DNA of 64,000 bases from Candidatus Collierbacteria bacterium RIFCSPLOWO2_01_FULL_50_23 (GCA_001774555.1 MFAI01000036.1:1488-65487), one strand, 5' to 3'. Positions 1 to 58,585 are shown, numbered from the stretch's first letter. Numbers and translations are program-made. The notes: generated from the sequence alone by a model not told the origin.

Positions 1-120
1 GCGCCGGTGTTTCCGAGATTGCTAGCGGTTTTCTGGAAACAAGAGCAATCCAACCTCCATTCACCCCCCACTTTGGTTCCCTCCTCAACCAGAGCCTCGC
101 CACACTCCCCACCATCGGCT

Positions 121-160
121 AAAAAACAAAAAATCCCGCTATTTGGGCGGGATTTTCTGT
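121..160 (-). terminator. Rho-independent terminator downstream of pilin gene 179..718 (hairpin atcccgc-cccaaatag-gcgggat followed by T-run on the minus strand)
   Basis: Read on the minus strand: cagaaaATCCCGCccaaatagCGGGATtttttgtttttt. GC stem plus U-tract immediately 3' of the pilin stop. Confidence 0.5.
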
Positions 161-178
161 TTCTTTGACCAAAAAATC

Positions 179-718
179 TTATGGACTGATCAAGTTTAGA
201 CCCGGATCGGTTCCAATTTCATACACGGTCGCGGAAGTTCCACCATCGTTGCTCACAACTGGGGCGTTATCGGTCGATTCCAAATAGCCATTGAGCTCAT
301 AAGTGCTACCGTTGCTCACGAAGGAGTAAACCATGCCTCCAGCCGCAATACTGGTCGTTCCGTCGGACAGCAAAGTGGCATCGGTTGCCGACTGACGGGG
401 ATCAACGGGCAATACTGACAGGAACTTGCTGACATCCACACCAATATAGTTAGCTATATTGCTGGTGTCGCGGGTTCCGGTCGAGTCTCCCGCGAAAGGA
501 ACAGCGACAGTCCCCGACAAATTCTTACCGTCAGCAATTGCAAGATCGATCGCCTTACGGATCGTAGCTAGATCAGATAGGCGGGTTGCATCCCGACCTT
601 TCTTCTGTATCTCAGTCGGATTAATAGCGAGAACGATCAGCGTAGCCAAGATTCCCAAAATTGCGATTACGACCAATAGTTCGATAAGCGTAAATCCTTT
701 AGTTGTTATTTTCCTCAT
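179..718 (-). CDS. Type IV pilin (candidate major pilin of cluster 1)
   Basis: N-terminus MRKITTKGFTLIELLVVIAILGILA is a class III prepilin leader with G|FTLIE cleavage/methylation motif and a hydrophobic alpha1 helix. Sits in an operon with PilO/PilMN/PilC/PilB. Confidence 0.8.
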   Translation of the reverse strand: MRKITTKGFTLIELLVVIAILGILATLIVLAINPTEIQKKGRDATRLSDLATIRKAIDLAIADGKNLSGTVAVPFAGDSTGTRDTSNIANYIGVDVSKFLSVLPVDPRQSATDATLLSDGTTSIAAGGMVYSFVSNGSTYELNGYLESTDNAPVVSNDGGTSATVYEIGTDPGLNLISP

Positions 719-773
719 TCATTCTCACCTCCTTTCCGATAACTAATTTAGTTATAGCATTTTTGACATAGTT

Positions 774-1037
774 TCAATCAAACGGCTCAGATCTGACTAC
801 CGGAATAACGGATACCGGGCTGGCGACCTTGATTGACTGTTGCAAAGTCCGAAAATTTTCCAATTTCAATACTGGCACAGAGGTATTGGCAGTGACCTCC
901 GAGATGTCAGGAACTCTGCTTGTTTCAATAAGTCTATAAGCCATAAAACCAGCGAGAACCAGGAATGCAACCATGCTGACCATGATCCGCAAATTGAGTT
1001 TCAAGGAAAGTTGACTTTCCTGTTCTTTGATATTCAT
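774..1037 (-). CDS. Hypothetical small membrane protein within the pilus operon (PilP-like position)
   Basis: 87 aa with a single TM segment (MVSMVAFLVLAGFMAY), lying between the pilin and PilO. No recognisable motif. Confidence 0.35.
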   Translation of the reverse strand: MNIKEQESQLSLKLNLRIMVSMVAFLVLAGFMAYRLIETSRVPDISEVTANTSVPVLKLENFRTLQQSIKVASPVSVIPVVRSEPFD

Positions 1038-1568
1038 TTATAGTTTTTGATTCATCATTAAAGCTCCAATAAAAACTGCCCTTACGCCGACTTTCGTTTC
1101 AGGTTTCATTACTGTCATTTTATCGATTTTGAAAAAATAGGGTAAATTAGATAGACCAGCCAAGAAACTTGTCACACCGGCATAATTTCCCTCCAGAGTT
1201 ATCTCTGACCCGAGACCGGCAATGTAATGCCCGAGAACGTCAACCGGACCGGGAAAGTCATCAAAACCTAGAGCGATCGTCAAGTTTTGTGCCTTGGCAA
1301 GTCCTTCGACGGCGGTCGCGAAAGCGGCTACGTCTTTCTCATTTGCCGGCAAAGTCCGTAACCAAGAATTTCCCAAAACAGAATAGGTGGGAAGATTTGA
1401 ATCCAAATTATCCAACTTTATCTGATTATTCCTCAAATTATCTACTCTGGCCTGTGTTTTGGAAAACAACATCAGTTGTCGCTGTGTTAGATAAAACAAC
1501 AGCAACGCACCGGCCAGAAAAAAGCCGAGAATAATAATGTGGACGACGGGCTGGTCGGTTTGTTTCAT
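1038..1568 (-). CDS. pilO: Type IV pilus assembly protein PilO-like
   Basis: 176 aa with N-terminal TM (IIILGFFLAGALLLFY) followed by a coiled-coil region. Overlaps the PilM/N stop by 4 nt (ATGA coupling). Confidence 0.5.
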   Translation of the reverse strand: MKQTDQPVVHIIILGFFLAGALLLFYLTQRQLMLFSKTQARVDNLRNNQIKLDNLDSNLPTYSVLGNSWLRTLPANEKDVAAFATAVEGLAKAQNLTIALGFDDFPGPVDVLGHYIAGLGSEITLEGNYAGVTSFLAGLSNLPYFFKIDKMTVMKPETKVGVRAVFIGALMMNQKL

Positions 1569-3019
1569 GGAGTTATTTGATTCGCAATACGAAAAGTAAC
1601 TGAAGACTCCCTTTCAAGACTGCCAAAATATAGTTTGCCATTGGAAAAATTCGATTGCGTCAATAGTCGGTTATAAAAATCCAAAACCAGTTGGCGCGAA
1701 CCGGCAACACCGGTCATCGCCCAGGTACTTTTGGAATCGGCCAATCTTACTGAACCAGGTCCCCTTGAAAAAACCAAACTCGTCAAGAATAGATCGGTTG
1801 GAGTAATGCTGGAAAGCTGACGCAGGATCACATTTTCACCACCGGTACTCTCACGTAACCAGATCAACTGATCAGACAATAGATTCAATTCATTGGCGGA
1901 AAAAATTTGGACTTGATTTTGCGGTTGGATCAACCGCTCCCGGTACGATTCTCCGACTACCTCCACCTGCTGTTGGCGCACCCGTGTCGATGTGTAAATA
2001 TAGAATAAGCCGGCAATACCGATAATCGTCAAGAAAATCAAAAGATTCAATCCCGCCTTCCAATTACCGATCAGCCTTTCCCGAATCACCGCCAGCCTAA
2101 ATTCGAGCGGTAAAAGGTTGAAAGATGCCGCCGTGTCGAATGTCTTCAGGGACAAACCATAAGCAGTGTGTAATAAGCTGTGATTCTTTACCTCGGCAGA
2201 GGACAAACGGCTATCCGCCAAATAGGCCGCCACATTTTGTGCCTTAAAATTATCGACCAAAGCTTGTATTTGAGGATTGGACCCGGAGATAACGATCTCC
2301 CTCACCGGCCGGTTTGGATGCTTCGAATTCGAAAAAACGACATAGTCGCGGATCGCATTACTGATGCCGCCTTTTTTGGTAATTTCTGAATCGGACAAGT
2401 AGTCTGAAAAGCGGGGGTTGCCGTTAGTAATATAGGTAAATTCGGCAAAATTATCTCCCAGATAGATCAAAAGCTGATCCTTTCCTTTGAATTGAGACGG
2501 GACAACGATCCGAATATTGGCAAAAACCGCCGGCTCGATCGCAACCACAACCAAACCGGTTGCCGAAACGACAGACAGATAAGACTGGATCACCGTTTTG
2601 GGGATTGCGGCCAGCAGTACCTCGATTTGACCCTCAACGTCATGGCCGATGATCTGCCAATCGGTTTCCACTCCGGAAGGCAGTAATGGCAATAGTGATC
2701 GGACCTGATAATTAATGGCCTCCTCGATTTCCTTGCCGGCGAACTTTGACAGGGTGAACTCTCGCAAAAAAACGCGGTTATCCGAAACCCCAACGACAAC
2801 TTTTTCTCCATAACTGATCGGGTGGGGTTGAGTCGAGATCAGTAGTTGATTCAACACCTTTATCAGACCGGCAGAGTCCTTTATCTCTCCATTGACGATA
2901 AAGCCGGAAGGCAGGGGCAGCTGTCCGAAACAAGCCAGTCTGGACCCATCAGAAGAAATTTGAGAAACTTCAGCAAAACGATCCGTAAAATACAAACCAA
3001 TGGCAGGCTTGGCAGGCAT
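1565..3019 (-). CDS. pilM: Type IV pilus assembly PilM-PilN fusion protein (actin-like ATPase domain fused to a PilN-like TM/periplasmic segment)
   Basis: N-terminal ~330 aa resemble PilM/FtsA-like actin-fold proteins. An internal TM segment (LNLLIFLTIIGIAGLFYIY) and a C-terminal ~130 aa resemble PilN. Operon context supports the call. Confidence 0.7.
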   Translation of the reverse strand: MPAKPAIGLYFTDRFAEVSQISSDGSRLACFGQLPLPSGFIVNGEIKDSAGLIKVLNQLLISTQPHPISYGEKVVVGVSDNRVFLREFTLSKFAGKEIEEAINYQVRSLLPLLPSGVETDWQIIGHDVEGQIEVLLAAIPKTVIQSYLSVVSATGLVVVAIEPAVFANIRIVVPSQFKGKDQLLIYLGDNFAEFTYITNGNPRFSDYLSDSEITKKGGISNAIRDYVVFSNSKHPNRPVREIVISGSNPQIQALVDNFKAQNVAAYLADSRLSSAEVKNHSLLHTAYGLSLKTFDTAASFNLLPLEFRLAVIRERLIGNWKAGLNLLIFLTIIGIAGLFYIYTSTRVRQQQVEVVGESYRERLIQPQNQVQIFSANELNLLSDQLIWLRESTGGENVILRQLSSITPTDLFLTSLVFSRGPGSVRLADSKSTWAMTGVAGSRQLVLDFYNRLLTQSNFSNGKLYFGSLERESSVTFRIANQITP

Positions 3020-3033
3020 AACCCTATTCTAAC

Positions 3034-4365
3034 TCATATTTCCTTAATACTCACCACCGCCCAACCACCACTTCCCGGTTCGACAATAGCGCGGGCCATG
3101 CTCGGATCAAACTCGATCGTGGCGTTATTTTCCACAAAGATCTCCTTCGCCAAAATACCCGATAAAATCGAGTTGCTATTTACATAGACACAACCGTTAA
3201 GAGCTACGAAAACCACCGTCGCCGTATTCGAAGATGTCTTGATCGATGGATTACTACACTGATCAAAAGTATTTTCCGAGATAAAAACCAACCCAGCCCC
3301 GAACGAATTACGAAAAAACTCAACATTACTGCTCGTGACAATGCGGCCCTGGCCCGCCGGATTGTCCGGGCTACTGACCACAACCACAATCGAGTTGCCA
3401 CCAACGGTCTCGGCGGTATAAAAATCATTATTTGAGTCAATTGTGAAGTCTTTTGTGATCCAAACAGGACCGGTAAAGGTTAAGTTCGTACCACTCGGAA
3501 CGGTCAAGTTCCCAACGATCTTGATACCACCCAAGTAGTTCGATCCGGAAGTACAATCTAGCGAGGAGCCGTCAACGACACAGTCGCCATTCCATATGCT
3601 CGCCCCCTGCGCTTGGTTTTTCCAATAATTAGCATCTACGCTGCCCAGCGGTGTAGCCGGAGGACCGGCGGCAAGAGAAAAGGTTCCGGAATAGGGACAG
3701 TTGCTTGGCGGTTGGGGCGCCATGACATCCTCACCGACCCAGCAGGCGGTCAGAGAACTTGCCCATGCATCTTTTTGAACATAAACCCCGCCCGACGACG
3801 GGCTATCCAGACCTCCAATATAGTCCACAGCCCAGACACTTCCAAGAATTCTGGAGCCACTATTGCCGGAAGAGATCGACTTTCCCCTGATGGCTCCATT
3901 GGAGTAGATGTTGCCGCTGGTATTATTTGAGCCTCGAACCACGGTTTGACCTTCCAGACTAATACCCCCGACTCCGGCCTGAAGCGCAAAGGTGAAACTG
4001 GCCTTGCTTGAAGAAGGGGCCACAACGACCTCCAAATTTTTTATGATTCCGGCGGCATACCCTGTGGCCCTGATTGTTTTTTGATTGCTATCACCGCCAA
4101 CCTCTGCCGAAACAGTCGCGTTTCCCCCAATCGCCAGTTCGAGAGAATATGAAGGGCCGAAATCCTGTCTGGCCCGTAAGCGCAGCATCACCTCATCAAC
4201 CCCCGCCCAGGCGGCATACCATGCCTGGTCCGAAGCATGAATCGTTTCTTCGATTTGAATGTTCGCAACAGACAAGCTGCTGCTGGCAATAGCACTGGTG
4301 ATCGCCACCATACCGATTAGGAGAATCATCACCAGACTGGCCTGCCCAAAGTTATTTCTTTTCAT
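3034..4365 (-). CDS. PilX_N-like minor pilus component with a large Gly/Ser/Thr-rich beta-type C-terminal domain (putative pilus tip or adhesin protein)
   Basis: N-terminus MKRNNFGQASLVMILLIGMVAITSAIAS matches PilX N-terminal family architecture. The rest is low-complexity G/S/N/T-rich. Located inside the pilus operon. Confidence 0.45.
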   Translation of the reverse strand: MKRNNFGQASLVMILLIGMVAITSAIASSSLSVANIQIEETIHASDQAWYAAWAGVDEVMLRLRARQDFGPSYSLELAIGGNATVSAEVGGDSNQKTIRATGYAAGIIKNLEVVVAPSSSKASFTFALQAGVGGISLEGQTVVRGSNNTSGNIYSNGAIRGKSISSGNSGSRILGSVWAVDYIGGLDSPSSGGVYVQKDAWASSLTACWVGEDVMAPQPPSNCPYSGTFSLAAGPPATPLGSVDANYWKNQAQGASIWNGDCVVDGSSLDCTSGSNYLGGIKIVGNLTVPSGTNLTFTGPVWITKDFTIDSNNDFYTAETVGGNSIVVVVSSPDNPAGQGRIVTSSNVEFFRNSFGAGLVFISENTFDQCSNPSIKTSSNTATVVFVALNGCVYVNSNSILSGILAKEIFVENNATIEFDPSMARAIVEPGSGGWAVVSIKEI

Positions 4366-4910
4366 CAGTCGATTACATTAGTAAACGTATCCGAAAAACT
4401 AGTTTGATAGTTTTCAAAGGGGAAAATTGTGTTAATTACACCCGAAACGGTGACCTGTCTTCCTCCGGTTGCCAGAGAGGCAACAGAAAAGTTGAACGCA
4501 GAAATTTCAGAATAACTGGGAAAAAATAATATGGTCGGATCAGGATTGGGGGTGCAGCCACTGGCCAACGTCTGGCTATAACGTACATTCTTACTTATCG
4601 AGTCATAGACGAAGCTCCAGCACTCGGCCGCCGATGTAAGCAATAGGGAACTCGAGCTGCCGCCAACCACCGAGGTGTTTTGAATCGCTCTCGTCAGAGT
4701 CCGGGAGAAGACCCGCAAAGATTCCGTCGTTGTCGTCGTCGCCAAGACCTGATCCCGAAGCGAAAGAGTGGTAAAGACCAGCCAAACCGAGGCCACACTA
4801 ATTACGGACATGATACTCAGGGTGATGATCACTTCGAGCATTGAAGTTCCGGCCTGCCCGACTGAATGAGTATTTTTCGACGCGGACTGATAGTTGATTC
4901 GCATTTTCAT
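4365..4910 (-). CDS. Pseudopilin / minor pilin
   Basis: Prepilin-like N-terminus GTSMLEVIITLSIMSVISVAS with Glu at +5. ATGA overlap with the upstream gene. Confidence 0.55.
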   Translation of the reverse strand: MKMRINYQSASKNTHSVGQAGTSMLEVIITLSIMSVISVASVWLVFTTLSLRDQVLATTTTTESLRVFSRTLTRAIQNTSVVGGSSSSLLLTSAAECWSFVYDSISKNVRYSQTLASGCTPNPDPTILFFPSYSEISAFNFSVASLATGGRQVTVSGVINTIFPFENYQTSFSDTFTNVID

Positions 4911-5455
4911 CTCCAGTAAGTAACGAGGGTGTTTAGCTGATAATCTTTGTCTTGATTATTTTCCTTCCAAGTTACTTTTACCAAAGCATAAAAAGAGAGT
5001 CGGTCGATCAACCCTCCCGCCTCCACCACACCGCATACCGGAGTATCACAGACCATATCTCTCATCACCGGTGACAAAGTGATCGTTCTGGTAAACTGAC
5101 CGACGGTTTCAGATCCGGAAACCAACGTCCACAATCCGGAATTCATCACCGGATGAAAGTCGCCTAACCCCAAAGAATTAAAGTCCCCCGCGCGGACACT
5201 CAAAAGAGCCTCCATTCCTTCCTTTGCCAACAAGTTCGCCCGGCTTCTGAGTTTATTCAAACCAACACTGTTGCTGGCCAAACTATTTGCGGACAGGCTT
5301 CCCACCACAATTACCATCATCAGCGAGATCGATACCAATATTTCCACCAAAGAAAAACCCTGCCCGCCTGCTTGCCAGCCCGCAGAGCTGTGCTCAGCAT
5401 TGCTGGCGGGCAAAGCTTGCGGCGTGTCCTGATTTGACTTAGTTGACAATGCCAT
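4907..5455 (-). CDS. Pseudopilin / minor pilin
   Basis: GFSLVEILVSISLMMVIVVG prepilin methylation motif after a ~30 aa leader. Confidence 0.65.
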   Translation of the reverse strand: MALSTKSNQDTPQALPASNAEHSSAGWQAGGQGFSLVEILVSISLMMVIVVGSLSANSLASNSVGLNKLRSRANLLAKEGMEALLSVRAGDFNSLGLGDFHPVMNSGLWTLVSGSETVGQFTRTITLSPVMRDMVCDTPVCGVVEAGGLIDRLSFYALVKVTWKENNQDKDYQLNTLVTYWR

Positions 5456-5855
5456 TTTGTTGGAAAATTACCAATTCGGTATTACCCGTTGAGGTAAGTG
5501 TTAATTGACAAGACAGGACGCAACCGGTGAGTTGACCGGTCAGGGGAGTAAAACCCCAGTTAAATGAGCTGGGACTATAAGTGATACCGGCGGGTGATTG
5601 AAAACGAGCGATCTCTCCCAAGTTTGATCTCAAGATCACTATGCCGGAAACCAGACTTATTTCATAACTCAGCTGATCTTTATTAGCGATTGCCAGTTCC
5701 CTTCCATACTGAAGTTGGCTCCTGATCTCGTCACCGGCGCTCCGAAGCTTAAAAACCGCCTGAAGTTGAGATAGGCCGGCAACACCTGCGGCCGTAACTG
5801 CAACCGTGATCGCCACGACCAATACCACCTCGAGGAAGGTGAAGCCTTTGTTCAC
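5439..5855 (-). CDS. Pseudopilin / minor pilin (GspH/FimT-like size)
   Basis: MNKGFTFLEVVLVVAITVAV class III prepilin N-terminus. Confidence 0.7.
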   Translation of the reverse strand: MNKGFTFLEVVLVVAITVAVTAAGVAGLSQLQAVFKLRSAGDEIRSQLQYGRELAIANKDQLSYEISLVSGIVILRSNLGEIARFQSPAGITYSPSSFNWGFTPLTGQLTGCVLSCQLTLTSTGNTELVIFQQNGIVN

Positions 5856-7084
5856 TTCAGAGTCGAGGTAATTTTGTAAATAGGAACAATCACTATCAAA
5901 GCCAATCCCAAAACTCCGAAGCCCAAAACAAAAATCATCGCCGGCTCGATCAACGACAAAAGATTGCGTAGGGCCACTTCAAGTTCTTCCTCGTAATAGG
6001 CCGCCAGCCTGTCAAGTGTATTACCAAGGTTTCCGGTTTTTTCGGCACCCCTGATCAATCTAGTCATGATCGAGGGAAAAAGTTCTTTTTCGAAAAAAAC
6101 TGCATCGGCCAAACTTTTTCCGGCAGTCAAATGGTCGTTGATGCGAATGCAGGCATCGCGATAAAGCGGGTTACCCAAACTCGCCGCCAAAATATCGAAT
6201 GATGAAACAACTTCCACGCCATAAATATAAAATCCACCCAAAACCCGCGAAAAACGGGCCAGGTTGTAACGAATCACCAACGGCCCCACCACGGGAAGTC
6301 TCAAACTCAACCGGCCGAGAAGCCGATCCCCGTAAGAACTTCGCGAAAAACCGATCAGCGCAACAACCGAAAGCCCGACCAGTACCAGCATCAAATACCA
6401 ATACTCGGCAAAAAAGGCAACCGTACTTGCCAGCGCCAAGGTATATCCAGGTAGTTTTTGTCCCGAACTCTGGGCAAAAAGTAAAATTTTCGGAACAATA
6501 GACACACTAATAAAAATCATCACTGCAGCCATCGCGGTGACGACAACAATCGGATAGATCAAAGCTGATCGGACCTTGCTGGCAAGTTCGTTTTCCCGCC
6601 GCAACTGCATGGCCAAATAACCCAAGCTCTCAGCCAAGGTACCACTACCTTCACCCGCACGGACGACCGCCAGATACGCTGGGGGAAAAATTTTTGGAAA
6701 ACGGGCAAAGGCCTCAGAAAGTTTCACCCCCGACTGTACTTCCAAAATAATTTTACTGATCACTCTGCCGGAACCGGTGGCGCTTTTCTGATCAACAAAG
6801 GTAGACAGGGCGTCCAAAATCGGCAAACCGGCTTTGATCATCGAAGAAAGCTGATTGGTGAAAAGGATCTTCTCCGCAACTGACATTCTTTCGTTCAACT
6901 CCCGGTCCAGCCGAATGAAAAAATTTGTCAGGATCCCAATTTCCAGGGGGTTTCGAACTCGCAGGCTAACCACCGTCAATCCCTGTTCAGAGAGCATTGT
7001 TTGGGCCTCAAGCTCCGAGCCCGCCTGCAATCGCCCGCTTTTATATTCATCACGGCTGACGGCTTTGTATTCAAATTCTGGCAT
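5852..7084 (-). CDS. pilC: Type IV pilus inner-membrane platform protein PilC (GspF family)
   Basis: 410 aa with two GspF-type repeats and three TM regions, adjacent to PilB. Sequence resembles the T2SS F-domain family. Confidence 0.88.
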   Translation of the reverse strand: MPEFEYKAVSRDEYKSGRLQAGSELEAQTMLSEQGLTVVSLRVRNPLEIGILTNFFIRLDRELNERMSVAEKILFTNQLSSMIKAGLPILDALSTFVDQKSATGSGRVISKIILEVQSGVKLSEAFARFPKIFPPAYLAVVRAGEGSGTLAESLGYLAMQLRRENELASKVRSALIYPIVVVTAMAAVMIFISVSIVPKILLFAQSSGQKLPGYTLALASTVAFFAEYWYLMLVLVGLSVVALIGFSRSSYGDRLLGRLSLRLPVVGPLVIRYNLARFSRVLGGFYIYGVEVVSSFDILAASLGNPLYRDACIRINDHLTAGKSLADAVFFEKELFPSIMTRLIRGAEKTGNLGNTLDRLAAYYEEELEVALRNLLSLIEPAMIFVLGFGVLGLALIVIVPIYKITSTLK

Positions 7085-7092
7085 ATTTTATA

Positions 7093-8796
7093 TTAGTCAA
7101 AAGTAACTCTGAGCACTTCCTCGACCGTGGTCACTCCGGCGACGACTTTCGCCGCACCGTCAAACAGCATCGTATGCATCCCATTCCTGATCGCCGCGTC
7201 CTTTATTTTTTTGGCCGTCGACCTGTCCAAAATTAACTGGCGGATTTCATCATTAATCGTAAAAAGCTCATAAAGACCGGTCCTTCCCGAGAAACCGCTG
7301 TAGTTACAAAAATTACATCCCGGCGCCACCCTCGTCTCGGCCGGAATGATCTTGGCCAACAGTTCTTTCTCGGCTGGTTCGCTGACGCTGGCCACCAGGT
7401 AATTAACGACGTTCGGATCGGTCGCTTTTGAAACAGAGCAGTGGGTACACAGCTTCCGGACCAACCTTTGGGCGATCACCAATTCAAGCGTAGACGCCAC
7501 CAAGAAAGGTTCCGCGCCCAGATCAATTAACCTGGGGATGGCTCCCGAAGCATCATTGGTGTGCAAAGTCGAAAGCACCAGGTGACCCGTCATCGCCGCA
7601 TTTGTCGAAATGCCGGCGGTATCGGCGTCACGAATTTCTCCAACCATAACAATATCAGGGTCTTGCCGCAACAAAGAACGCAAACCCTCAGCGAAAGAGA
7701 AGTTAATTTGCGGGTTAACCTGAGTCTGATTGATTCTTCTGATGTGATTCTCGACCGGATCTTCGACTGTTGAGATATTCACCTCACCGGTATTTAACAG
7801 ATTAAGCATGGTATAAAGACTGGTCGTCTTGCCTGAGCCCGTTGGCCCCGTCAGCAGGATCAATCCATGCGGTCGTGTCAAAATGCGCTTGATCGTTACG
7901 ACACTGGCCGAGTCATAGCCCAGATTTTCCAAAGAAAATTCCGGTTCGCCGCTCTCCAACAAACGGAGGACTACTTTTTCACCCTCAACGGTCGGTAGTA
8001 CCGAAACACGCAAGGAAACAACGTCCCTCTCTTCCGACTCGAACTTGAACCGGCCGTCCTGGGGTAGCCGGCTCTCATCAAGTTTCAGGGTCGACAGGAT
8101 TTTGATGCGGGCCACGATCGCCGCGTGGAGATCCTTGGGTAAAGAAATCATGTCATGCAGGACGCCGTCAATACGGTAACGGACCAAAACCAGATCTGGT
8201 AAGGCTTCGATGTGGATATCAGACGCCTCCTGGATTACCGAATACTCGAGCATTTGGTTAACCGCCTCGACGACAGAAACATCCTCAGCCAATTCCTGAA
8301 GCGTCACGTGTCCGTGCCTTTTCTTGGCTTGTTCCAGTAACTTGGTAAAGGTATCCGCCAAACTGGATTTGTATTGATGTAATCCGAATTTTATGTCTCT
8401 TTCAAATGCCAGAAAGGGGATCACCGTCAAACCGGTAACCTTGCGGATAAAGTTGATCGTCTCCAGATCTTTCGGGTCCTGCATCGCCAGACGAAGCGCG
8501 CCGCCTTCGTGGGCAAAGGGGATCACCCGTCGTTCTCTGGCCAGCTCCTCTTTTACCAAAGTGAGGATCTCCTTTGGCACCATGATCCTTTTCAGGTCAA
8601 TGTACTCGATCCCCATTGACTTGGCCATCAAATTACCCAAAACATCCTTCGCGATCAGCCTCCTGCCAATCAAGACGTCGTGCAAAGGAACGGCGAGATG
8701 AACCGCTGTTTTTTGGGCATCGTCCAGATCCTTCTCTGGGGTCAGGTTGGCCGAACGCACCAGATTGTAGATGTCAAAAAACATAGGGGCAGCCAT
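7093..8796 (-). CDS. pilB: Type IV pilus assembly ATPase PilB (GspE family)
   Basis: 567 aa with Walker A LLTGPTGSGKTTSLYT, Asp box, Walker B, His box and the tetracysteine CTHC...CNFC motif typical of PilB/GspE. Confidence 0.9.
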   Translation of the reverse strand: MAAPMFFDIYNLVRSANLTPEKDLDDAQKTAVHLAVPLHDVLIGRRLIAKDVLGNLMAKSMGIEYIDLKRIMVPKEILTLVKEELARERRVIPFAHEGGALRLAMQDPKDLETINFIRKVTGLTVIPFLAFERDIKFGLHQYKSSLADTFTKLLEQAKKRHGHVTLQELAEDVSVVEAVNQMLEYSVIQEASDIHIEALPDLVLVRYRIDGVLHDMISLPKDLHAAIVARIKILSTLKLDESRLPQDGRFKFESEERDVVSLRVSVLPTVEGEKVVLRLLESGEPEFSLENLGYDSASVVTIKRILTRPHGLILLTGPTGSGKTTSLYTMLNLLNTGEVNISTVEDPVENHIRRINQTQVNPQINFSFAEGLRSLLRQDPDIVMVGEIRDADTAGISTNAAMTGHLVLSTLHTNDASGAIPRLIDLGAEPFLVASTLELVIAQRLVRKLCTHCSVSKATDPNVVNYLVASVSEPAEKELLAKIIPAETRVAPGCNFCNYSGFSGRTGLYELFTINDEIRQLILDRSTAKKIKDAAIRNGMHTMLFDGAAKVVAGVTTVEEVLRVTFD

Positions 8797-13702: not shown

Positions 13703-13789
13703 GCCGAGGTGGTGAAATGGTAGCCACGCGGGACTTAAAATCCCGTTCCCTTCAAAGGAGTGCGGGTTCGAGTCCCGCCCTCGGCACCA
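13703..13789 (+). tRNA. tRNA-Leu (anticodon TAA)
   Basis: Acceptor GCCGAGG/CCTCGGC with discriminator A and encoded CCA. Anticodon loop CTTAAAA. Long variable arm. T-arm GCGGG-TTCGAGT-CCCGC. Confidence 0.85.
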
Positions 13790-13790
13790 T

Positions 13791-13864
<74 letters not shown>

Positions 13865-13960
13865 CTAATCCATTCCACTCCCATACCAATCTGCCAAATT
13901 TCCGCTATCCATTGGTGGTGGGGGGTCATCAGGTCCAAACTAGTTCTTTTTTTCACTCAC

Positions 13961-14347: not shown

Positions 14348-14399
14348 ATACGCCTATTTTAGCAAAGTCAGCCATGAATAGGTTAAAATATAAGGGTAT

Positions 14400-14477: not shown

Positions 14478-14564
14478 AAAAGGTGATATAGATTGATATA
14501 TCGGTATATACATGTCATTACACCTTGCTCGTCCAAAAAGTATGAATATATTAAGATAAATACT

Positions 14565-52864: not shown

Positions 52865-53130
52865 AACAACTCCTCGAGTACATTGTTCCCAATATCGTTA
52901 ATCATCCGGAAGATGTTGTCATCAACGAAACCGAAGAAAACGGCCTCATCAGTCTATCTATCAAGGTAAATCCCGAAGACATGGGTCGTGTAATTGGTAA
53001 GTCAGGCAAGGTCATTAAGGCGATCCGTCAAATCGGCCGTATTGTTGCTATCAAAAAAGGTGTCCGCGTCAACATCGATGTCGTTGATGAGGGCAACCGC
53101 ACCATTTCTGAGGAACTAAAGACCGAATAG
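52861..53130 (+). CDS. KH-domain RNA-binding protein (KhpA/YlqC-like)
   Basis: Start ATG overlaps the rpsP stop (ATGA). MGRVIGKSGKVIKAIRQIGRI is a type II KH GxxG loop. The classic rpsP-khpA pairing. Confidence 0.7.
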   Translation: MKQLLEYIVPNIVNHPEDVVINETEENGLISLSIKVNPEDMGRVIGKSGKVIKAIRQIGRIVAIKKGVRVNIDVVDEGNRTISEELKTE

Positions 53131-53883
53131 GTTTTCCTTTCCGACTCCTGCCGGAACTCCTCCCGAAGAGAAGGTCCCCAAACGTTTATAACTCGAAAGC
53201 GAGTTAATATTATCCAAATCCCTTTGTGTCAAAAATTTTCCTGACAGAGAATCGGCCGTGACAATCGAAAGCGGCATATGATAAAAGTTCAGACTCATCG
53301 AAAGTTTTGAATCGGACGCCCCGCTAAGAATCACTTTGGAGATTTCTGAAATTAAAAGTTCCGAAACCGAAGCAATCGGTAAGTACCGGTCAAGAGTATC
53401 AACAAAATTGATCAAATTCAGGGGCGAACCGGAAATTTCCAGTCTCACCGAGTGGGGGATCGCCGCTCCGACGTTCTTCACGATAGTCTCCTTCAGCTCC
53501 CCGCCGGCCAAGTTATATGTCACCAGATTTACCTGATTTTCAGAAGCTAATTTTCGAAGCGACAAGAGAATGTAGCCGGGATCAAACTTGTTTGGAATCG
53601 CCAAGTAGACGCTTTCGCGGGCCAAATCGTTCACATTTTGCTTGAAACTGTCCAAGGCGTCCAGGGTCTTGGCCAAGTTGTTATTTGCCGCTTCGAGATC
53701 AGAAACCTTTTTTGAAGCAGTCACCAGGTCGGCAAAACGAGGAAATACAAAAAGGAAAAGGACGGTCACCAGAAACAAGGCGGTCATTACTGCCACGATC
53801 GACTGTTTTATCAACTCGCCGTTTGATCCAACCGGTATGACGAAACCAAAAACCTTTTCTGTTCCGAGTTGAACTGTTGCCAT
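53116..53883 (-). CDS. PilO-like pilus assembly protein
   Basis: N-terminal TM (AVMTALFLVTVLFLFVF) then coiled-coil, directly downstream of the PilN-like and PilM genes. Confidence 0.45.
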   Translation of the reverse strand: MATVQLGTEKVFGFVIPVGSNGELIKQSIVAVMTALFLVTVLFLFVFPRFADLVTASKKVSDLEAANNNLAKTLDALDSFKQNVNDLARESVYLAIPNKFDPGYILLSLRKLASENQVNLVTYNLAGGELKETIVKNVGAAIPHSVRLEISGSPLNLINFVDTLDRYLPIASVSELLISEISKVILSGASDSKLSMSLNFYHMPLSIVTADSLSGKFLTQRDLDNINSLSSYKRLGTFSSGGVPAGVGKENLFGL

Positions 53884-54422
53884 TACTTTATCTTTAGTTC
53901 TAATATTATCAGATATGAGCCGGTTTTTTCCCTTTGGAGCGCTTTTTGAGCTATCGCTGAAAAAAGAAAATTTTGATCACTCTTGCTGCCGTCAATATTG
54001 CTGATCAGAAGGTCATAGTCAGCCAGGGAAGGCAGTCTAACCGAAACCGAGATAATTCCAGTTTGACCAAAATCTACCGCCGATAACTTTGCCCTGCTGG
54101 GTAACAGTTTATATACTCCGTCCAAAAAAATTTTGTACTTAAATCTTTTGCTTTGGATCAAATCCGCAGTTTCGATAATTTGTTTGACAGCCAGGTACTC
54201 CGCCACGTCGCGACTCCGCGAGGAATAGAGGCCCTGAAGCGTCTTTAACGACTCGGTTAATGAACTTGATCGAAATCCGAGATAGACGAACTGACCTGAC
54301 ATAAAGATGACCGATAGAACAAAAAAGGTCAAGCTTCCGAAGGTAACAATCGCATTGATCTGTCTGATTCTTTGGGCCTGTCGAAACTTCAGGGTATCTT
54401 GACGAACAATATTTATCTTCAT
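53883..54422 (-). CDS. PilN-like pilus assembly protein
   Basis: 179 aa. Short cytoplasmic N-terminus, TM (IVTFGSLTFFVLSVIFM), periplasmic domain. 1 nt overlap with PilM. Confidence 0.5.
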   Translation of the reverse strand: MKINIVRQDTLKFRQAQRIRQINAIVTFGSLTFFVLSVIFMSGQFVYLGFRSSSLTESLKTLQGLYSSRSRDVAEYLAVKQIIETADLIQSKRFKYKIFLDGVYKLLPSRAKLSAVDFGQTGIISVSVRLPSLADYDLLISNIDGSKSDQNFLFSAIAQKALQREKTGSYLIILELKIK

Positions 54423-55432
54423 TACTCCTCCTCGCTCGCTAATCCCGTGGCTACGGCATAGACCGGTCCCAGGTTTCTAATACTCTCGGACACATTAAAA
54501 CCCTCGAAGGCATTCCCGATAGCCACTTCCAGACCGGTTTGTTCCGTCAAGACCGGCACCAAGCCCTTGAGGTAGGCCCCGCCACCGGCCAGTATCAGTC
54601 GATCGATCTTCCTCTCGGGATAGGCAGACAGATAACTCGCGACCACCTTCTTGATGTCACCGATCAATCCTGACAAGACCGGCTCCATTGCCGTATAGAG
54701 CTTGCCCTCAAATTGTGCTTTTTCCAGACCATAGACCCTCTTATACTCCTCCGCCTGGTTTATAGCCAACCTAAAGGAGTCGGCAATAATCCTGGTAAAG
54801 GCCATCCCGCCCAAAGAAGAAAGGTAGTTGGTATAAATCACCGACGGATCTGCCACAACCATCCTGGTGTTGGAAAAACCGATATCAACCGCCAGGCTAA
54901 CACCGGCAACCTTTCTCGCGATAATGAGGCTCCTCACCAAAGAAACTATTTCATTCTCAACCCGATCTACCTCCAAACCAAGTAGGTCCATAAAGTTCAC
55001 ATAGGCACTGGAAATCTTGCTCGGAACAGCTACGACCAAAACCCTCATCTTTTCGGTACCCAGATTGGTCTTTGGTCTAAAAAGCACAACCCAGGATAAC
55101 TCCAATTTATCAATCGGGTAGGGGATCACTTGTTCTGCTTCCCATCTGATTGCCGTCGCCAGTTCAGGAGAAGACATTACCGGGAAGCTCATCACCTTGG
55201 TGAAAACCAGTTGCTCGGGAATCGAAACTACCACCCGATGCTTCTTTACTTTATTTATGGAAAGCATTCCACGGACAGCATCCACCAGACTGCTCTGGTC
55301 GGCGGGAACCAAGTCGACGCCCACCTTTCCGGTTGGATTTGGAGCAATGGCCGCAAGAGAAACGTTCCTCCCCGAAAGTTCAATTAATTTGATCGAACTG
55401 CTTCCGATATCTAGTCCAAAAAAGGCAGGCAT
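54422..55432 (-). CDS. pilM: Type IV pilus assembly ATPase-fold protein PilM
   Basis: N-terminus FFGLDIGSSSIKLIEL (actin/FtsA-like phosphate-1 loop) and PilM-length body. Confidence 0.85.
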   Translation of the reverse strand: MPAFFGLDIGSSSIKLIELSGRNVSLAAIAPNPTGKVGVDLVPADQSSLVDAVRGMLSINKVKKHRVVVSIPEQLVFTKVMSFPVMSSPELATAIRWEAEQVIPYPIDKLELSWVVLFRPKTNLGTEKMRVLVVAVPSKISSAYVNFMDLLGLEVDRVENEIVSLVRSLIIARKVAGVSLAVDIGFSNTRMVVADPSVIYTNYLSSLGGMAFTRIIADSFRLAINQAEEYKRVYGLEKAQFEGKLYTAMEPVLSGLIGDIKKVVASYLSAYPERKIDRLILAGGGAYLKGLVPVLTEQTGLEVAIGNAFEGFNVSESIRNLGPVYAVATGLASEEE

Positions 55433-55437: not shown

Positions 55438-56232
55438 TTATTGTGTCAAACTACCATTGGTATACAAAACGTTGTCAAAAATTACCGGTACTCTGTCTGA
55501 AGTTTTCGAAAAAGTCAGATTTGTCACAACGTTGTTTTCGACCGTCCCCACGGCATTAATCGAAACCGTTTGACCACCGGCCAAAGTACCACCCACCGGT
55601 TCAAGCCCGACCGAGGTCTTTGCATACAGCGTCTTCACCCTGACCAACACCGGCGTTTGGGGAGCGGCCAAGTTGATGGGAACGGTCAGCTTGTTGTCAA
55701 AAGATACCGTCTTAAAAGTATAACTTCCCTCCGTGTAAGTGATCGGAGAATCGACTGTGGTTTCAAACTCATTGGTTACCGACCGGCCACTGTCAGGATC
55801 AGCGGTATAGTAGCTTACCGAATACCCGCTTGCCGCATCTCCAAAGAGAATGCTAACCATTATCGCCGTATTGGTGTTCCAGTATAGATTCAGGGCCGTT
55901 ATCCCGAGGGCTCCAACCAAAGAGGCCTGGACCACGTCTCCCTCATCAACTGCGTCCGCAACAAAACCGTTGACAGACTCTGAGGCATCATAGGTTGCCG
56001 AAAAACTACCGCCGCCGGGCAGTAAGGTTGGCGGAACATCCGCCTTGGTGTTCAAAGCCACTTCCAGAGCCGCTTCCGCCGCCTTGAATGACTGGCTGCT
56101 GACGTTTTCGATGCCCTGGCTTCTCAGGTTCTCAACAGACCGGCTGGCCACACCCACCGAAACGGCTCCCACCACCGCCATGATCATGATCAAGATTAGC
56201 GCAGCTTGACCTTTCATCGACTTGCCCGTCAT
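55438..56232 (-). CDS. PilX_N-like minor pilus-associated protein
   Basis: KGQAALILIMIMAVVGAVSVGVAS N-terminal segment as in the PilX N-terminal family. Remainder is Thr/Ser/Val-rich. Confidence 0.4.
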   Translation of the reverse strand: MTGKSMKGQAALILIMIMAVVGAVSVGVASRSVENLRSQGIENVSSQSFKAAEAALEVALNTKADVPPTLLPGGGSFSATYDASESVNGFVADAVDEGDVVQASLVGALGITALNLYWNTNTAIMVSILFGDAASGYSVSYYTADPDSGRSVTNEFETTVDSPITYTEGSYTFKTVSFDNKLTVPINLAAPQTPVLVRVKTLYAKTSVGLEPVGGTLAGGQTVSINAVGTVENNVVTNLTFSKTSDRVPVIFDNVLYTNGSLTQ

Positions 56233-56256: not shown

Positions 56257-56784
56257 TCATTGACCACTATTGCGCATCGTCACCTCAATAATATAGTCGT
56301 TGTTCACAATGGAGTCTCCTTGCTGGCTCGTCGAGGTTGCATTAAACTGCATCACCAGCCGGTCCGGTACACCCAAAGAACAATACCAGCTGAAGTAATA
56401 CCCCAAACCGGGTTTGTGGATCACCGTGACACCTTCCGGGTTGATGACGACCGTTTCGGCAGAAACCGAAGAGATCTGGCCGCCACTCTCGGAAATGGTT
56501 GAAAGTAGTTCATCGATCGCCTCAATCACCAGGGAATCGCCATTAAGGGACCCTGCAGTTAGACAGGCGTTACGGGATTGACCATCGAGCGAAATAGCTA
56601 CACCTTCCCGGAAAAAACGTCCAAGACCACTGGTGATCAGCCTGGATCGGTCATCCAGGGTTCTCCGAATCTCGATCTGTGAGGTCCCCCGCAGAGAACG
56701 GGAAAAAATTGCCGCCCCTGTCCCCGCTAATATCGCGATAATTCCTACCGCCACCATTAGCTCGATCAAGGTAAAGCCTCTCAT
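56257..56784 (-). CDS. Pseudopilin / minor pilin
   Basis: Start chosen at internal Met giving MRGFTLIELMVAVGIIAILAG. This ATG overlaps the upstream gene stop (ATGA). The track ORF extends 59 codons further 5'. Confidence 0.65.
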   Translation of the reverse strand: MRGFTLIELMVAVGIIAILAGTGAAIFSRSLRGTSQIEIRRTLDDRSRLITSGLGRFFREGVAISLDGQSRNACLTAGSLNGDSLVIEAIDELLSTISESGGQISSVSAETVVINPEGVTVIHKPGLGYYFSWYCSLGVPDRLVMQFNATSTSQQGDSIVNNDYIIEVTMRNSGQ

Positions 56785-57215
56785 AAGTCGTAAAGAGTTA
56801 GCACCGTCGGAATTGAACTTGAAACTGTGTCTGAACCAACTATCCAAGACATTGTCACGGTGACATCGACCCTGGTTGAGGCTCCTGCAGGTGAAAAAGT
56901 GCAAGTCATCTGGCAAGAATACATATCGTTGATTCCGAAAGTTCCGCAGGGGTCGTTGCACGTCTCGCTGGCAAAAAAAGTCTCCTTGTCCAGGTCCCTG
57001 GTATTTCTGTAGGCCTCAAGTACTTTTTCGATATATTTCGTCGCCTCCAACTTGTTCCTCGAAGCCATTGCCAGCTTGGTAGCATGCGTTATTACCGTCA
57101 GACTCATCACCAATGCCGTCGTGATTACCCCAAGTCCCACCAAGATCTCGATCATCAGTTGACCCGCCCGCCTGCATGCGCAGCTTGCGGCGTGGCCCTT
57201 CATCCTACTAATCAT
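56781..57215 (-). CDS. Pseudopilin-like protein (atypical leader)
   Basis: RRAGQLMIEILVGLGVITTALVMSL has a G|QLMIE site with Glu+5 and a hydrophobic helix. Less canonical than its neighbours. Confidence 0.4.
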   Translation of the reverse strand: MISRMKGHAASCACRRAGQLMIEILVGLGVITTALVMSLTVITHATKLAMASRNKLEATKYIEKVLEAYRNTRDLDKETFFASETCNDPCGTFGINDMYSCQMTCTFSPAGASTRVDVTVTMSWIVGSDTVSSSIPTVLTLYDL

Positions 57216-57223
57216 AATTCAGT

Positions 57224-57754
57224 TTAGCAGGGACCGGCATAGACCGGGCGACTGACATTTGCCGCTTGATAAATTGTCACGGCAAACAGGTATTTATATC
57301 CGCAAATATTCACAGTCGCAGGCGTGGCCGAAATAGTTCTGCTGTCAAAAGTGGTGCCCCCAGCGCTTTGAAAAACACTATTAGCCAAGGTTAAAGAAAG
57401 ATTGGGAATTGGCACAGAACCGACCCCCGGGCAAGTTGCCGATACTGTTAGATCGGCACCGGAAAAACCCACAACGTAGTTGGTCACATTCGTGCAGCCT
57501 GGAGGAATCTCAACCGCAGTTGCCTTGATCTGAATCGTTCGCAGCCAATCGGCCACGGCACTGGCGTCGTCGTTTGTCGATCTTCGTTCCCGATAATTCA
57601 AAAAGGTGACCAGCGACGTCCCCGAAAGCACAATAATAATTGTCGAGGTGATCAGCAGTTCGATCATGGTGAAGCCCCTGCCCGAAATGCCCTGCCCGAA
57701 AAGCTTCGCTTGACGATGCAGGCGGGTACGCATAACGTTGCAGGCGGGTTTCAT
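57224..57754 (-). CDS. Pseudopilin / minor pilin
   Basis: GRGFTMIELLITSTIIIVLSG motif. ATGA-coupled to the upstream gene. Confidence 0.65.
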   Translation of the reverse strand: MKPACNVMRTRLHRQAKLFGQGISGRGFTMIELLITSTIIIVLSGTSLVTFLNYRERRSTNDDASAVADWLRTIQIKATAVEIPPGCTNVTNYVVGFSGADLTVSATCPGVGSVPIPNLSLTLANSVFQSAGGTTFDSRTISATPATVNICGYKYLFAVTIYQAANVSRPVYAGPC

Positions 57755-58583: not shown

Positions 58584-58585
58584 TT

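What the first reader, a model, noticed from the sequence alone, without database searches (positions are those of the whole stretch)
1..8796. Two complete, separately organised type IV pilus clusters with duplicated PilB/PilC/PilM-N-O; PilM-PilN fused in cluster 1 only
Cluster 1 (179-8796) and cluster 2 (53116-64000) each encode their own assembly ATPase, platform protein, alignment proteins, PilX_N-like large protein and distinct sets of pilins. Only cluster 2 has PilT and PilD. In cluster 1 PilM and PilN are one 484 aa polypeptide, whereas cluster 2 keeps them separate. Two non-identical machines that share a single retraction ATPase and peptidase suggest functional specialisation (for example DNA uptake versus host attachment or twitching). 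The gene order shows ATGA translational coupling throughout.
Basis: partly seen in the sequence, partly recalled or inferred. Interest (0 to 1): 0.5.

Follow-up and report, generated by a model that had tools for sequence, protein, structure and literature searches.

The report
Two pilus machines in a CPR bacterium
This stretch of an ultrasmall Collierbacteria-like (CPR) bacterium carries two different, intact gene sets for type IV pili, a layout with close precedents elsewhere, so it is a solid but fairly ordinary finding.

Summary
Cluster 1 (179-8796, minus strand) and cluster 2 (53116 to the window end) are two divergent type IVa-class pilus gene sets: PilB 43% identical, PilC 31%, PilM about 21%. 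Within the window only cluster 2 has PilT and PilD. Cluster 1 has a 484-aa PilM-PilN fusion.

Cluster 1 is not a remnant. Its ten genes keep the same order in every fetched Collierbacteria-like contig long enough to show it. dN/dS is 0.03-0.14 for the nine genes where it could be computed. One relative carries both clusters on a single 488-kb contig.

The fusion is real and keeps PilN's 'NLLP' PilM-binding motif. It is not new: PilM-PilN is fused in C. difficile, T2SS GspL has the same layout, and about 100 fused representatives turned up, including Roizmanbacteria and Dojkabacteria. Two T4P systems, one lacking PilT and PilD, are described in Saccharibacteria TM7x.

Extra points:
- The 443-aa 'PilX-like' protein is predicted to be a ComZ-like tip pilin (GspK-like pilin domain plus beta-solenoid).
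- The cluster 1 major pilin is the most conserved protein of its cluster in the more distant relatives.
- The fused proteins mostly lack the canonical ATP-binding loop.

Function (adhesion, DNA capture or secretion) is inferred, not shown. Verdict: new member of a known kind; modest interest.

The parts
7093..8796 (-). PilB1, extension ATPase of cluster 1 (567 aa)
   Evidence: Pfam T2SSE 1.4e-122 plus MshEN. NCBIfam PilB 529 bits and GspE 519 bits, against ComGA 240 bits. Two CxxC motifs are visible in the sequence. 70-92% identical in relatives.
5852..7084 (-). PilC1, platform protein of cluster 1 (410 aa)
   Evidence: Pfam T2SSF, two stretches, 6.6e-50. NCBIfam GspF/PilC well above ComGB. 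31% identical to PilC2.
5439..5855 (-). Minor pilin-like protein (138 aa), leader MNKG|FTFLE
   Evidence: Weak N_methyl match. G-1/E+5 motif. Syntenic in all relatives.
4907..5455 (-). Minor pilin-like protein (182 aa), ...GGQG|FSLVE
   Evidence: N_methyl 5e-4. Motif scan. The true start is uncertain: relatives align from about residue 18-30.
4365..4910 (-). Minor pilin-like protein (181 aa), ...GQAG|TSMLE
   Evidence: Motif scan. Very weak N_methyl match. Syntenic.
3034..4365 (-). Predicted tip pilin (443 aa): GspK-like pilin domain without Glu+5, plus a beta-solenoid inserted before the last strand (ComZ topology)
1565..3019 (-). PilM-PilN fusion (484 aa): actin-like domain 1-295, FNLLP motif 300-304, TM about 320-345, coiled coil, ferredoxin-like domain 395-480
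   Evidence: Pfam PilM_2 plus weak PilN. AF2 pLDDT 85. Foldseek best hit is PilM:PilN(1-12) 5EOU, E 3e-21, with GspL only 1e-9. 60 homologue clusters of about 484 aa.
1038..1568 (-). PilO-like protein (176 aa), ATGA-coupled to PilMN
   Evidence: Pfam PilO 0.0056, below the cut-off. Position and synteny.
774..1037 (-). Conserved 87-aa protein with one hydrophobic segment, role unknown
   Evidence: No family match. Present in 14 of the 16 cluster-1 loci, 35-67% identical.
179..718 (-). Major pilin candidate of cluster 1 (179 aa), leader MRKITTKG|FTLIE, Cys-free
   Evidence: N_methyl 3e-7. Preceded by a GGAGG-type ribosome-binding site after a 55-nt gap. 73-90% identical across relatives over its full length.
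130..156 (.). Palindromic G+C-rich hairpin flanked by A/T runs, 22 nt past the pilin stop. Likely operon terminator.
   Evidence: Terminator-like site in the pattern scan, reported on the + strand; the symmetric A4/T4 flanks are read from the listed sequence. Consensus match only.
63307..64000 (-). PilB2, extension ATPase of cluster 2 (C-terminal 230 aa only, cut by the window end)
   Evidence: Pfam T2SSE 1.6e-64. 43% identical to PilB1. The orthologue in L016 is 595 aa with MshEN+T2SSE.
62243..63307 (-). PilT retraction ATPase (354 aa)
   Evidence: NCBIfam pilT_fam 448 bits against a cut-off of 319. The only copy in the window.
61044..62246 (-). PilC2 platform protein (400 aa)
   Evidence: Pfam T2SSF 5e-67. 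NCBIfam GspF 357 bits.
60401..60994 (-). PilA-like major pilin candidate of cluster 2 (197 aa, 6 Cys)
   Evidence: N_methyl 7e-8. Leader MRKLSQG|FTLIE. 52% identical in L016.
59565..60365 (-). PilD prepilin peptidase (266 aa)
   Evidence: A24_N_bact 2.5e-31 plus Peptidase_A24 2.3e-15. The only copy in the window.
56257..59565 (-). Seven further prepilin-like genes of cluster 2 (real starts near 59565, 59056, 58583, 58155, 57736, 57215, 56784)
   Evidence: N_methyl matches. G-1/E+5 motif scan. Orthologues in L016 are 42-60% identical.
55438..56232 (-). 264-aa GspK/PilX-like protein without Glu+5 (MKG|QAALI)
   Evidence: No Pfam match. The N-terminal about 100 aa align to the 443-aa family, hhalign E 5e-5, probability 67%.
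54422..55432 (-). PilM2, unfused (336 aa), canonical GLDIG loop
   Evidence: PilM_2 7e-39 over its full length. NCBIfam pilM 153 bits against a cut-off of 133. 829 homologues with E<=1e-40.
53116..54422 (-). Two proteins with an apparent N-terminal hydrophobic stretch (179 and 255 aa) in the PilN and PilO positions of cluster 2
   Evidence: Assigned by position only; the hydrophobic stretch was read by eye from the sequences. No family match and no similarity to PilMN or PilO1. Conserved in L016 (41-47% identical).

Best explanation
The window comes from a Collierbacteria-like member of the Microgenomates (Patescibacteria/CPR). It encodes two independent type IVa-class pilus assembly machines.

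Cluster 2 is the canonical CPR pilus: PilB2-PilT-PilC2-PilA-PilD, several pilins, a GspK-like cap, PilM2 and two proteins in the PilN and PilO positions. It is probably retractile because it carries PilT.

Cluster 1 is a second, self-contained assembly module: PilB1-PilC1, three small minor pilins, a 443-aa tip pilin, PilMN, PilO1, an 87-aa protein and a major pilin. The proposed mechanism is inferred by analogy with studied T4aP and T2SS:
- The PilB1 hexamer drives PilC1.
- Both are held by a ring of PilMN. Its cytoplasmic actin-like domain is covalently tied to the membrane-spanning PilN part, and the retained NLLP segment probably docks back into the PilM groove.
- The external PilN domain pairs with PilO1.
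- The three small pilins and the Glu5-less 443-aa protein form the priming tip complex, which leaves the beta-solenoid exposed as the distal cap.
- The 179-aa pilin then polymerises beneath it.
- Cluster 1 prepilins carry the same G|F/T-x-x-x-E signal as cluster 2 pilins. They must therefore be cleaved in trans by a PilD encoded elsewhere, most simply the cluster 2 copy.

My preferred function is an adhesive filament for binding a partner cell or surface polymer. It would be either non-retractile or served in trans by PilT, the counterpart of the PilT-less host-binding T4P-2 of Saccharibacteria.

Shown here: gene content, divergence between the clusters, conservation, purifying selection, co-occurrence of both clusters in one relative, and the predicted folds. 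Inferred: protein interactions, trans-processing by PilD, retraction status and biological role.
For: - Components are identified by Pfam and NCBIfam.
- The two sets are deeply divergent.
- Cluster 1 gene order is identical in the 13 genome loci (four of them short contigs covering only its distal part) plus L014/L015.
- dN/dS is 0.03-0.14 with saturated dS for the nine cluster 1 genes where it could be computed.
- Both clusters lie on contig JBGGHH010000001.1 at about 188-200 kb and 260-268 kb.
- The PilMN model has pLDDT 85 with PilM-like, TM and ferredoxin-like parts. Its best structural match is PilM:PilN(1-12). The internal NLLP motif is invariant at N301, L303 and P304.
- The 443-aa model has ComZ/GspK topology. 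ComZ and GspK are argued to be tip subunits (PMC6561018).
- The prepilin motifs are the same in both clusters.
- There is a single PilD and a single PilT in the window.
- PilM2-type proteins are common (829 hits at E<=1e-40; the named ones are Collierbacteria or Patescibacteria-group), whereas the word-index search for PilMN found only about 60 clusters.
- Precedent: Saccharibacteria TM7x, where locus 1 has PilT and PilD and locus 2 lacks both and serves host binding (PMC11623550).
Against: - No expression, filament or interaction data exist for this organism.
- Only 64 kb is visible, so other PilD or PilT copies cannot be excluded.
- PilO1 and the PilN part match Pfam only below the gathering cut-offs.
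- PilN2 and PilO2 have no detectable homology.
- The adhesion role rests on analogy. The closest multi-domain match of the tip protein (ComZ) is a DNA receptor, and the solenoid fold is generic.
- PilB and PilC NJ trees do not link cluster 1 to the PilMN-type operons of other CPR lineages.
Confidence: 0.72

Rival explanations
1. Cluster 1 is a competence pilus. The ComZ-like 443-aa tip pilin captures extracellular DNA, which is then handed to the uptake machinery, while cluster 2 does motility and attachment.
Confidence: 0.15
2. Cluster 1 is a monoderm analogue of a type II secretion system. A short pseudopilus acts as a piston that pushes folded proteins through the wall or S-layer, as proposed for the second T4P gene set of Clostridium perfringens.
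Against: There is no secretin or GspC in the window and no obvious cargo gene in or next to the cluster. Pfam T2SSL, GspL_C and T2SSM do not match even at E<=10. The fold is much closer to PilM than to GspL (3e-21 against 1e-9). PilB1 scores marginally higher as PilB than as GspE. A bulky 300-residue solenoid cap fits an exposed tip better than a piston.
Confidence: 0.1
3. The two clusters are redundant recent duplicates, or cluster 1 is a decaying remnant of no functional consequence.
For: None beyond the duplicated gene names.
Against: Identity between paralogues is 21-43%. All ORFs are intact, synteny is conserved in the 13 genome loci plus L014/L015, and dN/dS is 0.03-0.14 for the nine genes where it could be computed.
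Confidence: 0.01

Closest known systems
Dual type IV pili of Saccharibacteria (Nanosynbacter lyticus TM7x; Grossman et al., PMC11623550)
   Same: A CPR bacterium with two T4aP-class gene sets. One locus has PilB, PilT, PilC, PilD, PilMNO and pilins. The second has its own PilB, PilC and PilMNO but no PilT or PilD. Two distinct filaments with different roles were shown experimentally.
   Different: It belongs to a different phylum. In TM7x PilM2 and PilN2 are separate genes, the second system's pilins sit in another locus, and its large minor pilin carries a beta-propeller rather than a beta-solenoid. Orthology between cluster 1 and TM7x T4P-2 was not tested here.
PilM-PilN fusion of Clostridioides difficile T4P (Melville and Craig 2013, cited in PMC6916266)
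   Same: A natural single-polypeptide PilM-PilN in a monoderm T4aP machine.
   Different: No sequence comparison with the C. difficile protein was run. The CPR proteins keep a diderm-style INLLP motif between the two parts, whereas Pelicic suggests a different motif in Firmicutes.
GspL (PulL/EpsL) of type II secretion systems
   Same: The same topology: cytoplasmic actin-like domain, one TM helix, external ferredoxin-like domain. It is described as corresponding to a PilM+PilN fusion (PMC10191384). The cytoplasmic domain is a structural match (1YF5, E 1e-9). Lack of nucleotide binding in GspL is from my own knowledge.
   Different: Pfam GspL families do not match. PilM structures match far better. 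There is no secretin or GspC here.
ComZ, competence-associated tip pilin of Thermus thermophilus (PDB 6QVI, PMC6561018)
   Same: A GspK-like pilin domain with a large triangular beta-solenoid inserted between the penultimate and last strands. The solenoid is related to DUF3494 ice-binding proteins.
   Different: 14-16% identity. The solenoid here is shorter (about 300 against about 380 residues). The DNA-binding lysines were not compared. The protein is acidic.
Second T4P gene set of Clostridium perfringens (PMC11580942)
   Same: A monoderm with two complete T4P gene sets, one proposed to act like a T2SS.
   Different: A cargo (BsaC) is known there and none is evident here. No sequence comparison was run.

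Membership tests
Type IVa pilus machinery (monoderm form) | PilB-type extension ATPase and PilC-type platform protein | tested here: met
   Both clusters have T2SSE and T2SSF. NCBIfam PilB/GspE and GspF/PilC are the top hits, though below the equivalog cut-offs.
Type IVa pilus machinery (monoderm form) | PilM, PilN and PilO assembly sub-complex | tested here: inconclusive
   PilM is clear in both clusters. The PilN part of PilMN and PilO1 match Pfam only below the cut-offs, although the AF2 model has the expected TM plus ferredoxin-like topology. The cluster 2 'PilN' and 'PilO' have no detectable homology.
Type IVa pilus machinery (monoderm form) | Prepilins with a class III signal (Gly-1, Glu+5) and a prepilin peptidase | tested here: met
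   Twelve prepilin-like ORFs, four in cluster 1 and eight in cluster 2. PilD lies only in cluster 2, so cluster 1 meets this feature only in trans.
Type IVa pilus machinery (monoderm form) | PilT retraction ATPase | tested here: met
   Met for cluster 2 (pilT_fam 448 bits against 319). Not met within cluster 1, nor in cluster 1 of the relatives.
Type II secretion system | Secretin GspD and GspC | tested here: not met
   No such protein was found in either cluster or among the other window ORFs that were scanned. This is as expected, since CPR lack an outer membrane (PMC6744442).
Type II secretion system | GspL and GspM family membership | tested here: not met
   No T2SSL, GspL_C or T2SSM match at E<=10. 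The fold is closer to PilM (E 3e-21) than to GspL (E 1e-9). Only the architecture is shared.
Com (competence) pilus of monoderms | ComGA/ComGB-type motor and platform, and no PilMNO | tested here: not met
   ComGA scores 240 bits against PilB 529 bits. ComGB scores 124-145 bits against GspF 268-357 bits. PilM is present in both clusters.
Tad (type IVc) pilus | TadA/CpaF ATPase, TadB/C and Flp pilins | tested here: not met
   The TadA-family model scores only 47.6 bits for PilB1. The pilins are T4a-like.
Natural PilM-PilN fusion proteins | One polypeptide holding the PilM actin-like domain, an INLLP-like PilN N-terminal motif, a TM helix and a PilN ferredoxin-like domain | tested here: met
   The same layout occurs in about 100 of the best 150 representatives.
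ComZ-like tip pilins | Pilin fold with a beta-solenoid inserted before the last strand | tested here: met
ComZ-like tip pilins | DNA binding | not testable with these tools
   Needs biochemistry. The acidic pI of 4.6 is only a weak argument against it.
Dual T4P of Saccharibacteria | Orthology of cluster 1 with TM7x T4P-2 | not tested
Only the architecture is compared.

The most novel reading that the evidence does not exclude
The PilMN-type operons may define a distinct type IV filament subtype. They share the layout PilB, PilC, minor pilins, large cap protein, fused PilM-PilN, PilO-like protein, small protein, major pilin, with no PilT or PilD. They occur in Collierbacteria, Roizmanbacteria, Dojkabacteria and unnamed lineages. 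In this subtype the actin-like domain has lost canonical nucleotide binding and is permanently tethered to PilN. That would make it a monoderm parallel to, or a relative of, the GspL-based T2SS platform. It would build a non-retractile filament whose surface is under unusually strong constraint, since the pilin is 73-90% identical where PilMN itself drops to 33%.
Probability: 0.15. Interest if true: 0.6.

Novelty: new member of a known kind. Interest (0 to 1): 0.3.

Why it matters
CPR bacteria are thought to depend on pili to find and hold their hosts. Knowing that Collierbacteria-like genomes keep two different machines under purifying selection extends the Saccharibacteria result to a second major CPR group. 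It also gives concrete targets:
- a conserved Cys-free pilin;
- a ComZ-like solenoid cap;
- a fused, probably nucleotide-free PilM-PilN.

The fused family could serve as a natural model for how GspL-type platforms arise from PilM+PilN. None of this overturns current views. It is a useful catalogue entry rather than a surprise.

Tried and rejected
- Recent duplication or a pseudogene remnant was rejected.
- Com or Tad identity of either cluster was rejected on NCBIfam scores.
- A conserved regulatory link of cluster 1 to the response regulator and histidine kinase next to it in L014 was rejected. These neighbours are not conserved in other loci.
- I tried to confirm PilN2 and PilO2 by hhalign and BLASTP against cluster 1 proteins. 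Nothing was detectable.
- I tried to place PilB1 and PilC1 with the PilMN-type operons of other CPR lineages using NJ trees (212 and 393 columns, few taxa). PilB1 is about equally far (44-50%) from PilB2 and from those ATPases, so the origin of cluster 1 stays unresolved.
- The promoter scan gave no more sites than shuffles (9 against 9.9 expected).
- The afdb50 fold library was unavailable.
- Whether the NLLP segment docks into the PilM groove in the AF2 model could not be checked, because coordinates are not exposed.

Full report
**What is in the sequence**

Cluster 1 is ten back-to-back minus-strand ORFs from 8796 down to 179.
- Pfam identifies PilB1 (T2SSE 1.4e-122 plus MshEN) and PilC1 (T2SSF).
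- Three ORFs carry N_methyl-type prepilin N-termini.
- A 484-aa ORF has PilM_2 at residues 16-170 and a weak PilN match at 398-463.
- There is also a weak PilO match.
- A motif scan finds four G|x-x-x-x-E prepilins in cluster 1, eight in cluster 2 and none elsewhere in the window.

Cluster 2 runs from the window end down to 53116. It holds PilB2 (only its last 230 residues are in the window), PilT, PilC2, a PilA-like pilin, PilD, seven more prepilins, a 264-aa protein, a full-length unfused PilM2, and two proteins with an apparent N-terminal hydrophobic stretch.

A tblastn of every component against the window shows two PilB, two PilC, one PilT and one PilD. The paralogues are far apart: PilB 43%, PilC 31%, PilM about 21%.
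- PilB2 is truncated.
- The cluster 2 'PilN' and 'PilO' are positional assignments only.
- There is no Pfam PilX_N match.
- 'ATGA coupling throughout' is really a mix of ATGA/GTGA overlaps, 1-nt overlaps and short gaps.

**Whose genome**

Ten tRNA genes and housekeeping genes (BipA, PheST, RecG, PBP1, trigger factor) show a chromosomal context. The PilMN protein has about 60 homologue clusters, all near 484 aa and 43-81% identical, some named Candidatus Collierbacteria. A scan of species-representative genomes returned 13 loci. They are titled Collierbacteria or 'Patescibacteria group', and several are titled 'uncultured Pseudomonadales', which looks like a mislabel. The window is thus from a Collierbacteria-like member of the Microgenomates (CPR).

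**Is cluster 1 real and maintained?**

In every locus long enough to show it, the order PilB1, PilC1, 138, 182, 181, 443, PilMN, PilO1, 87 aa, pilin is identical. Against the closest relative, dN/dS is 0.03-0.14 for nine of the ten genes, with dS above 1; for the 443-aa gene dS was too saturated to give a ratio.

In assembly GCA_041643075.1 the PilMN orthologue (59% identical) and the PilM2 orthologue (59% identical) lie on the same 488-kb contig. Cluster 2 sits at about 188-200 kb and cluster 1 at about 260-268 kb. Each has the same gene order as in the window. So a relative does carry both clusters, and the 'recent duplicate' and 'remnant' refutations both fail.

**Class of the machines**

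NCBIfam places both ATPases with PilB/GspE (529/519 bits for PilB1), far above ComGA (240 bits) and the TadA-family model (48 bits). Both platform proteins go with GspF/PilC, far above ComGB. PilT passes its family cut-off. Both clusters are T4aP/T2SS-class, not Com and not Tad.

PilM2-type proteins are abundant: 829 hits at E<=1e-40, the named ones from Collierbacteria or Patescibacteria-group genomes. Another Microgenomates genome is reported to have a single locus of the cluster 2 kind (PMC7143001). Cluster 2 is therefore the canonical CPR pilus and cluster 1 is the extra one.

**The PilM-PilN fusion**

AlphaFold2 with 46 homologues gives pLDDT 85. The model has an alpha/beta domain at 1-295, a long helix at 305-364 that contains the hydrophobic segment, a coiled coil, and an alpha/beta domain at 395-480. 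Foldseek's best PDB hit is P. aeruginosa PilM bound to the PilN(1-12) peptide (5EOU, E 3e-21). FtsA follows, and GspL cytoplasmic domains reach only E 1e-9.

Between the two parts sits FNLLP (residues 300-304; N301, L303 and P304 are invariant). From established knowledge this is the conserved N-terminal motif of PilN that binds PilM. The protein is therefore an end-to-end PilM+PilN fusion that keeps the interaction peptide.

This architecture is already known. [quoted passage not shown] It is also widespread:
- A profile search of 1.84 billion representatives returned 9732 hits.
- About 100 of the best 150 are 450-650-aa proteins with an internal [ILV]N[LIF][LIV]P motif followed about 20 residues later by a TM segment.
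- Named examples are Roizmanbacteria and Dojkabacteria.
- Four such distant genes sit in similar operons: PilB and PilC (not visible on the short Dojkabacteria contig), several pilin-like or large proteins, PilMN, a PilO-sized protein, a small protein (absent in one locus) and a pilin, with no PilT or PilD.

One thing I did not find in the papers I read concerns the nucleotide-binding loop. All 113 unfused PilM2-type proteins have the canonical phosphate-1 loop (GLDIG-like). By contrast, 60 of 60 Collierbacteria PilMN proteins and 100 of 117 fused representatives lack it. In the window protein the phosphate-1 Asp is Tyr (GLYFTD; the profile alignment to T. thermophilus PilM places it against GLEIG). 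By my by-eye alignment with PilM2, the phosphate-2 loop Asp is also Tyr (IYLGD). This suggests loss of canonical nucleotide binding, as I recall is the case for GspL. It is an inference from motifs only.

**The large protein of cluster 1**

The 443-aa protein has no Pfam match, and its named homologues are Collierbacteria or Microgenomates-group. Its AF2 model (pLDDT 84) has these parts:
- a 57-residue N-terminal helix;
- a four-stranded sheet;
- a roughly 300-residue beta-solenoid;
- one final strand.

Like GspK (established knowledge), the 443-aa protein lacks Glu+5 (G|QASLV). The cluster 2 264-aa protein shares this N-terminal module (G|QAALI; hhalign E 5e-5). Each cluster therefore has a cap-type minor pilin plus three small ones, the usual priming set.

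**The cluster 1 pilin**

The 179-aa pilin is as conserved as PilB1 against the nearest relative and is the most conserved protein of the cluster against all more distant ones. It is 73-90% identical, and still 75% in L013, where PilMN is 33%. Conservation extends over the globular part (mean 74%) with a single indel. The pilin is Cys-free and acidic, whereas every cluster 2 pilin has 2-6 Cys. In cluster 2 the pattern is the usual one: PilA is 52% identical against 75% for PilB2. This is unexplained, and it points to a strong constraint on the filament surface.

**Mechanism and function**

The assembly scheme given under 'best explanation' follows from component identity and established T4aP/T2SS biology. 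The need for a PilD in trans follows from the shared prepilin signal and the absence of a peptidase in cluster 1 in all relatives.

For function I prefer adhesion to a partner cell or polymer. The grounds are the TM7x precedent, where the PilT-less system mediates host binding and not competence or motility, the exposed solenoid cap, the tapirin similarity, and the acidic surface. DNA capture (ComZ-like cap) and a T2SS-like piston (no PilT, GspL-like fusion, GspK-like cap, and the C. perfringens precedent) remain open.

The origin of cluster 1 is also unresolved. In small NJ trees PilB1 and PilC1 are about equally distant from PilB2/C2 and from the other PilMN-type operons.

**Verdict**

This is a correct and well-described observation of a known kind of arrangement. 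Dual T4P in CPR, PilM-PilN fusion and ComZ-like caps all have precedents. The modestly new points are three: Collierbacteria-like genomes keep such a second system, the fused family largely lacks the ATP-binding loop, and its pilin is unusually conserved.

Noticed in passing
window 179-718; L001-L014: The cluster 1 major pilin is the most conserved protein of its cluster in all but the closest relative. It is 73-90% identical over its full length and still 75% where PilMN is 33%. It has no Cys and pI 4.6. Cluster 2 pilins all have 2-6 Cys and diverge normally.
   Followed up: partly
window 1565-3019; proteins P0001-P0060 and P0183-P0329: Fused PilM-PilN proteins mostly lack the canonical actin-fold phosphate-1 loop (GxDIG): 60/60 Collierbacteria-type and 100/117 other fused representatives lack it. 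All 113 unfused PilM2-type proteins keep it. In the window protein the phosphate-1 Asp, and by my by-eye alignment the phosphate-2 Asp, are Tyr. This suggests loss of ATP binding, as I recall for GspL.
   Followed up: partly
L018 3963-12939; L019 3345-12994; L020 127-6777; L021 224-9758: Distant PilMN genes (Roizmanbacteria, Dojkabacteria and unnamed lineages) sit in similar PilT-less and PilD-less operons. Each ends with a pilin gene, on the opposite strand in L020. L018 and L019 are preceded by two response-regulator genes, and both have a LytR_C protein between the PilO-sized gene and the pilin.
   Followed up: partly
window 28117-34028 (minus strand): Two adjacent very large proteins (925 and 1044 aa) each have a calcineurin-like phosphoesterase domain. 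The second also has right-handed beta-helix repeats. Possibly surface or secreted enzymes.
   Followed up: no
window 130-156: A perfect G+C-rich palindrome (AAAATCCCGC...GCGGGATTTT) lies 22 nt after the pilin stop codon. It looks like a bidirectional terminator closing the cluster 1 operon.
   Followed up: no
window 58152-59056: Two neighbouring cluster 2 pilins share an almost identical long leader (M..KNKATPKAMH..G.GFTL.EL), suggesting a tandem duplication.
   Followed up: no
window 59053-60069: A 338-aa ORF overlaps PilD (59565-60365) in another frame. Only its last about 170 codons (from near 59565) are a real pilin gene, so it is a trap for ORF-based gene calling.
   Followed up: yes
L001, L005, L007, L008, L010-L013 (record titles): Several contigs with Collierbacteria-type pilus operons are deposited as 'uncultured Pseudomonadales bacterium'. 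This appears to be a taxonomic mislabel of CPR MAGs.
   Followed up: no
window 13703-14476: A tight group of five tRNA genes (Leu, Arg, Gly, Pro, His) on both strands is followed by a PP2C phosphatase gene (14493-15368).
   Followed up: no
window 774-1037: An 87-aa protein with a single hydrophobic segment lies between PilO1 and the pilin. It was detected in 14 of the 16 cluster-1 loci (35-67% identical) and has no family match. It may be an extra platform component, a PilP-like role by position only.
   Followed up: no
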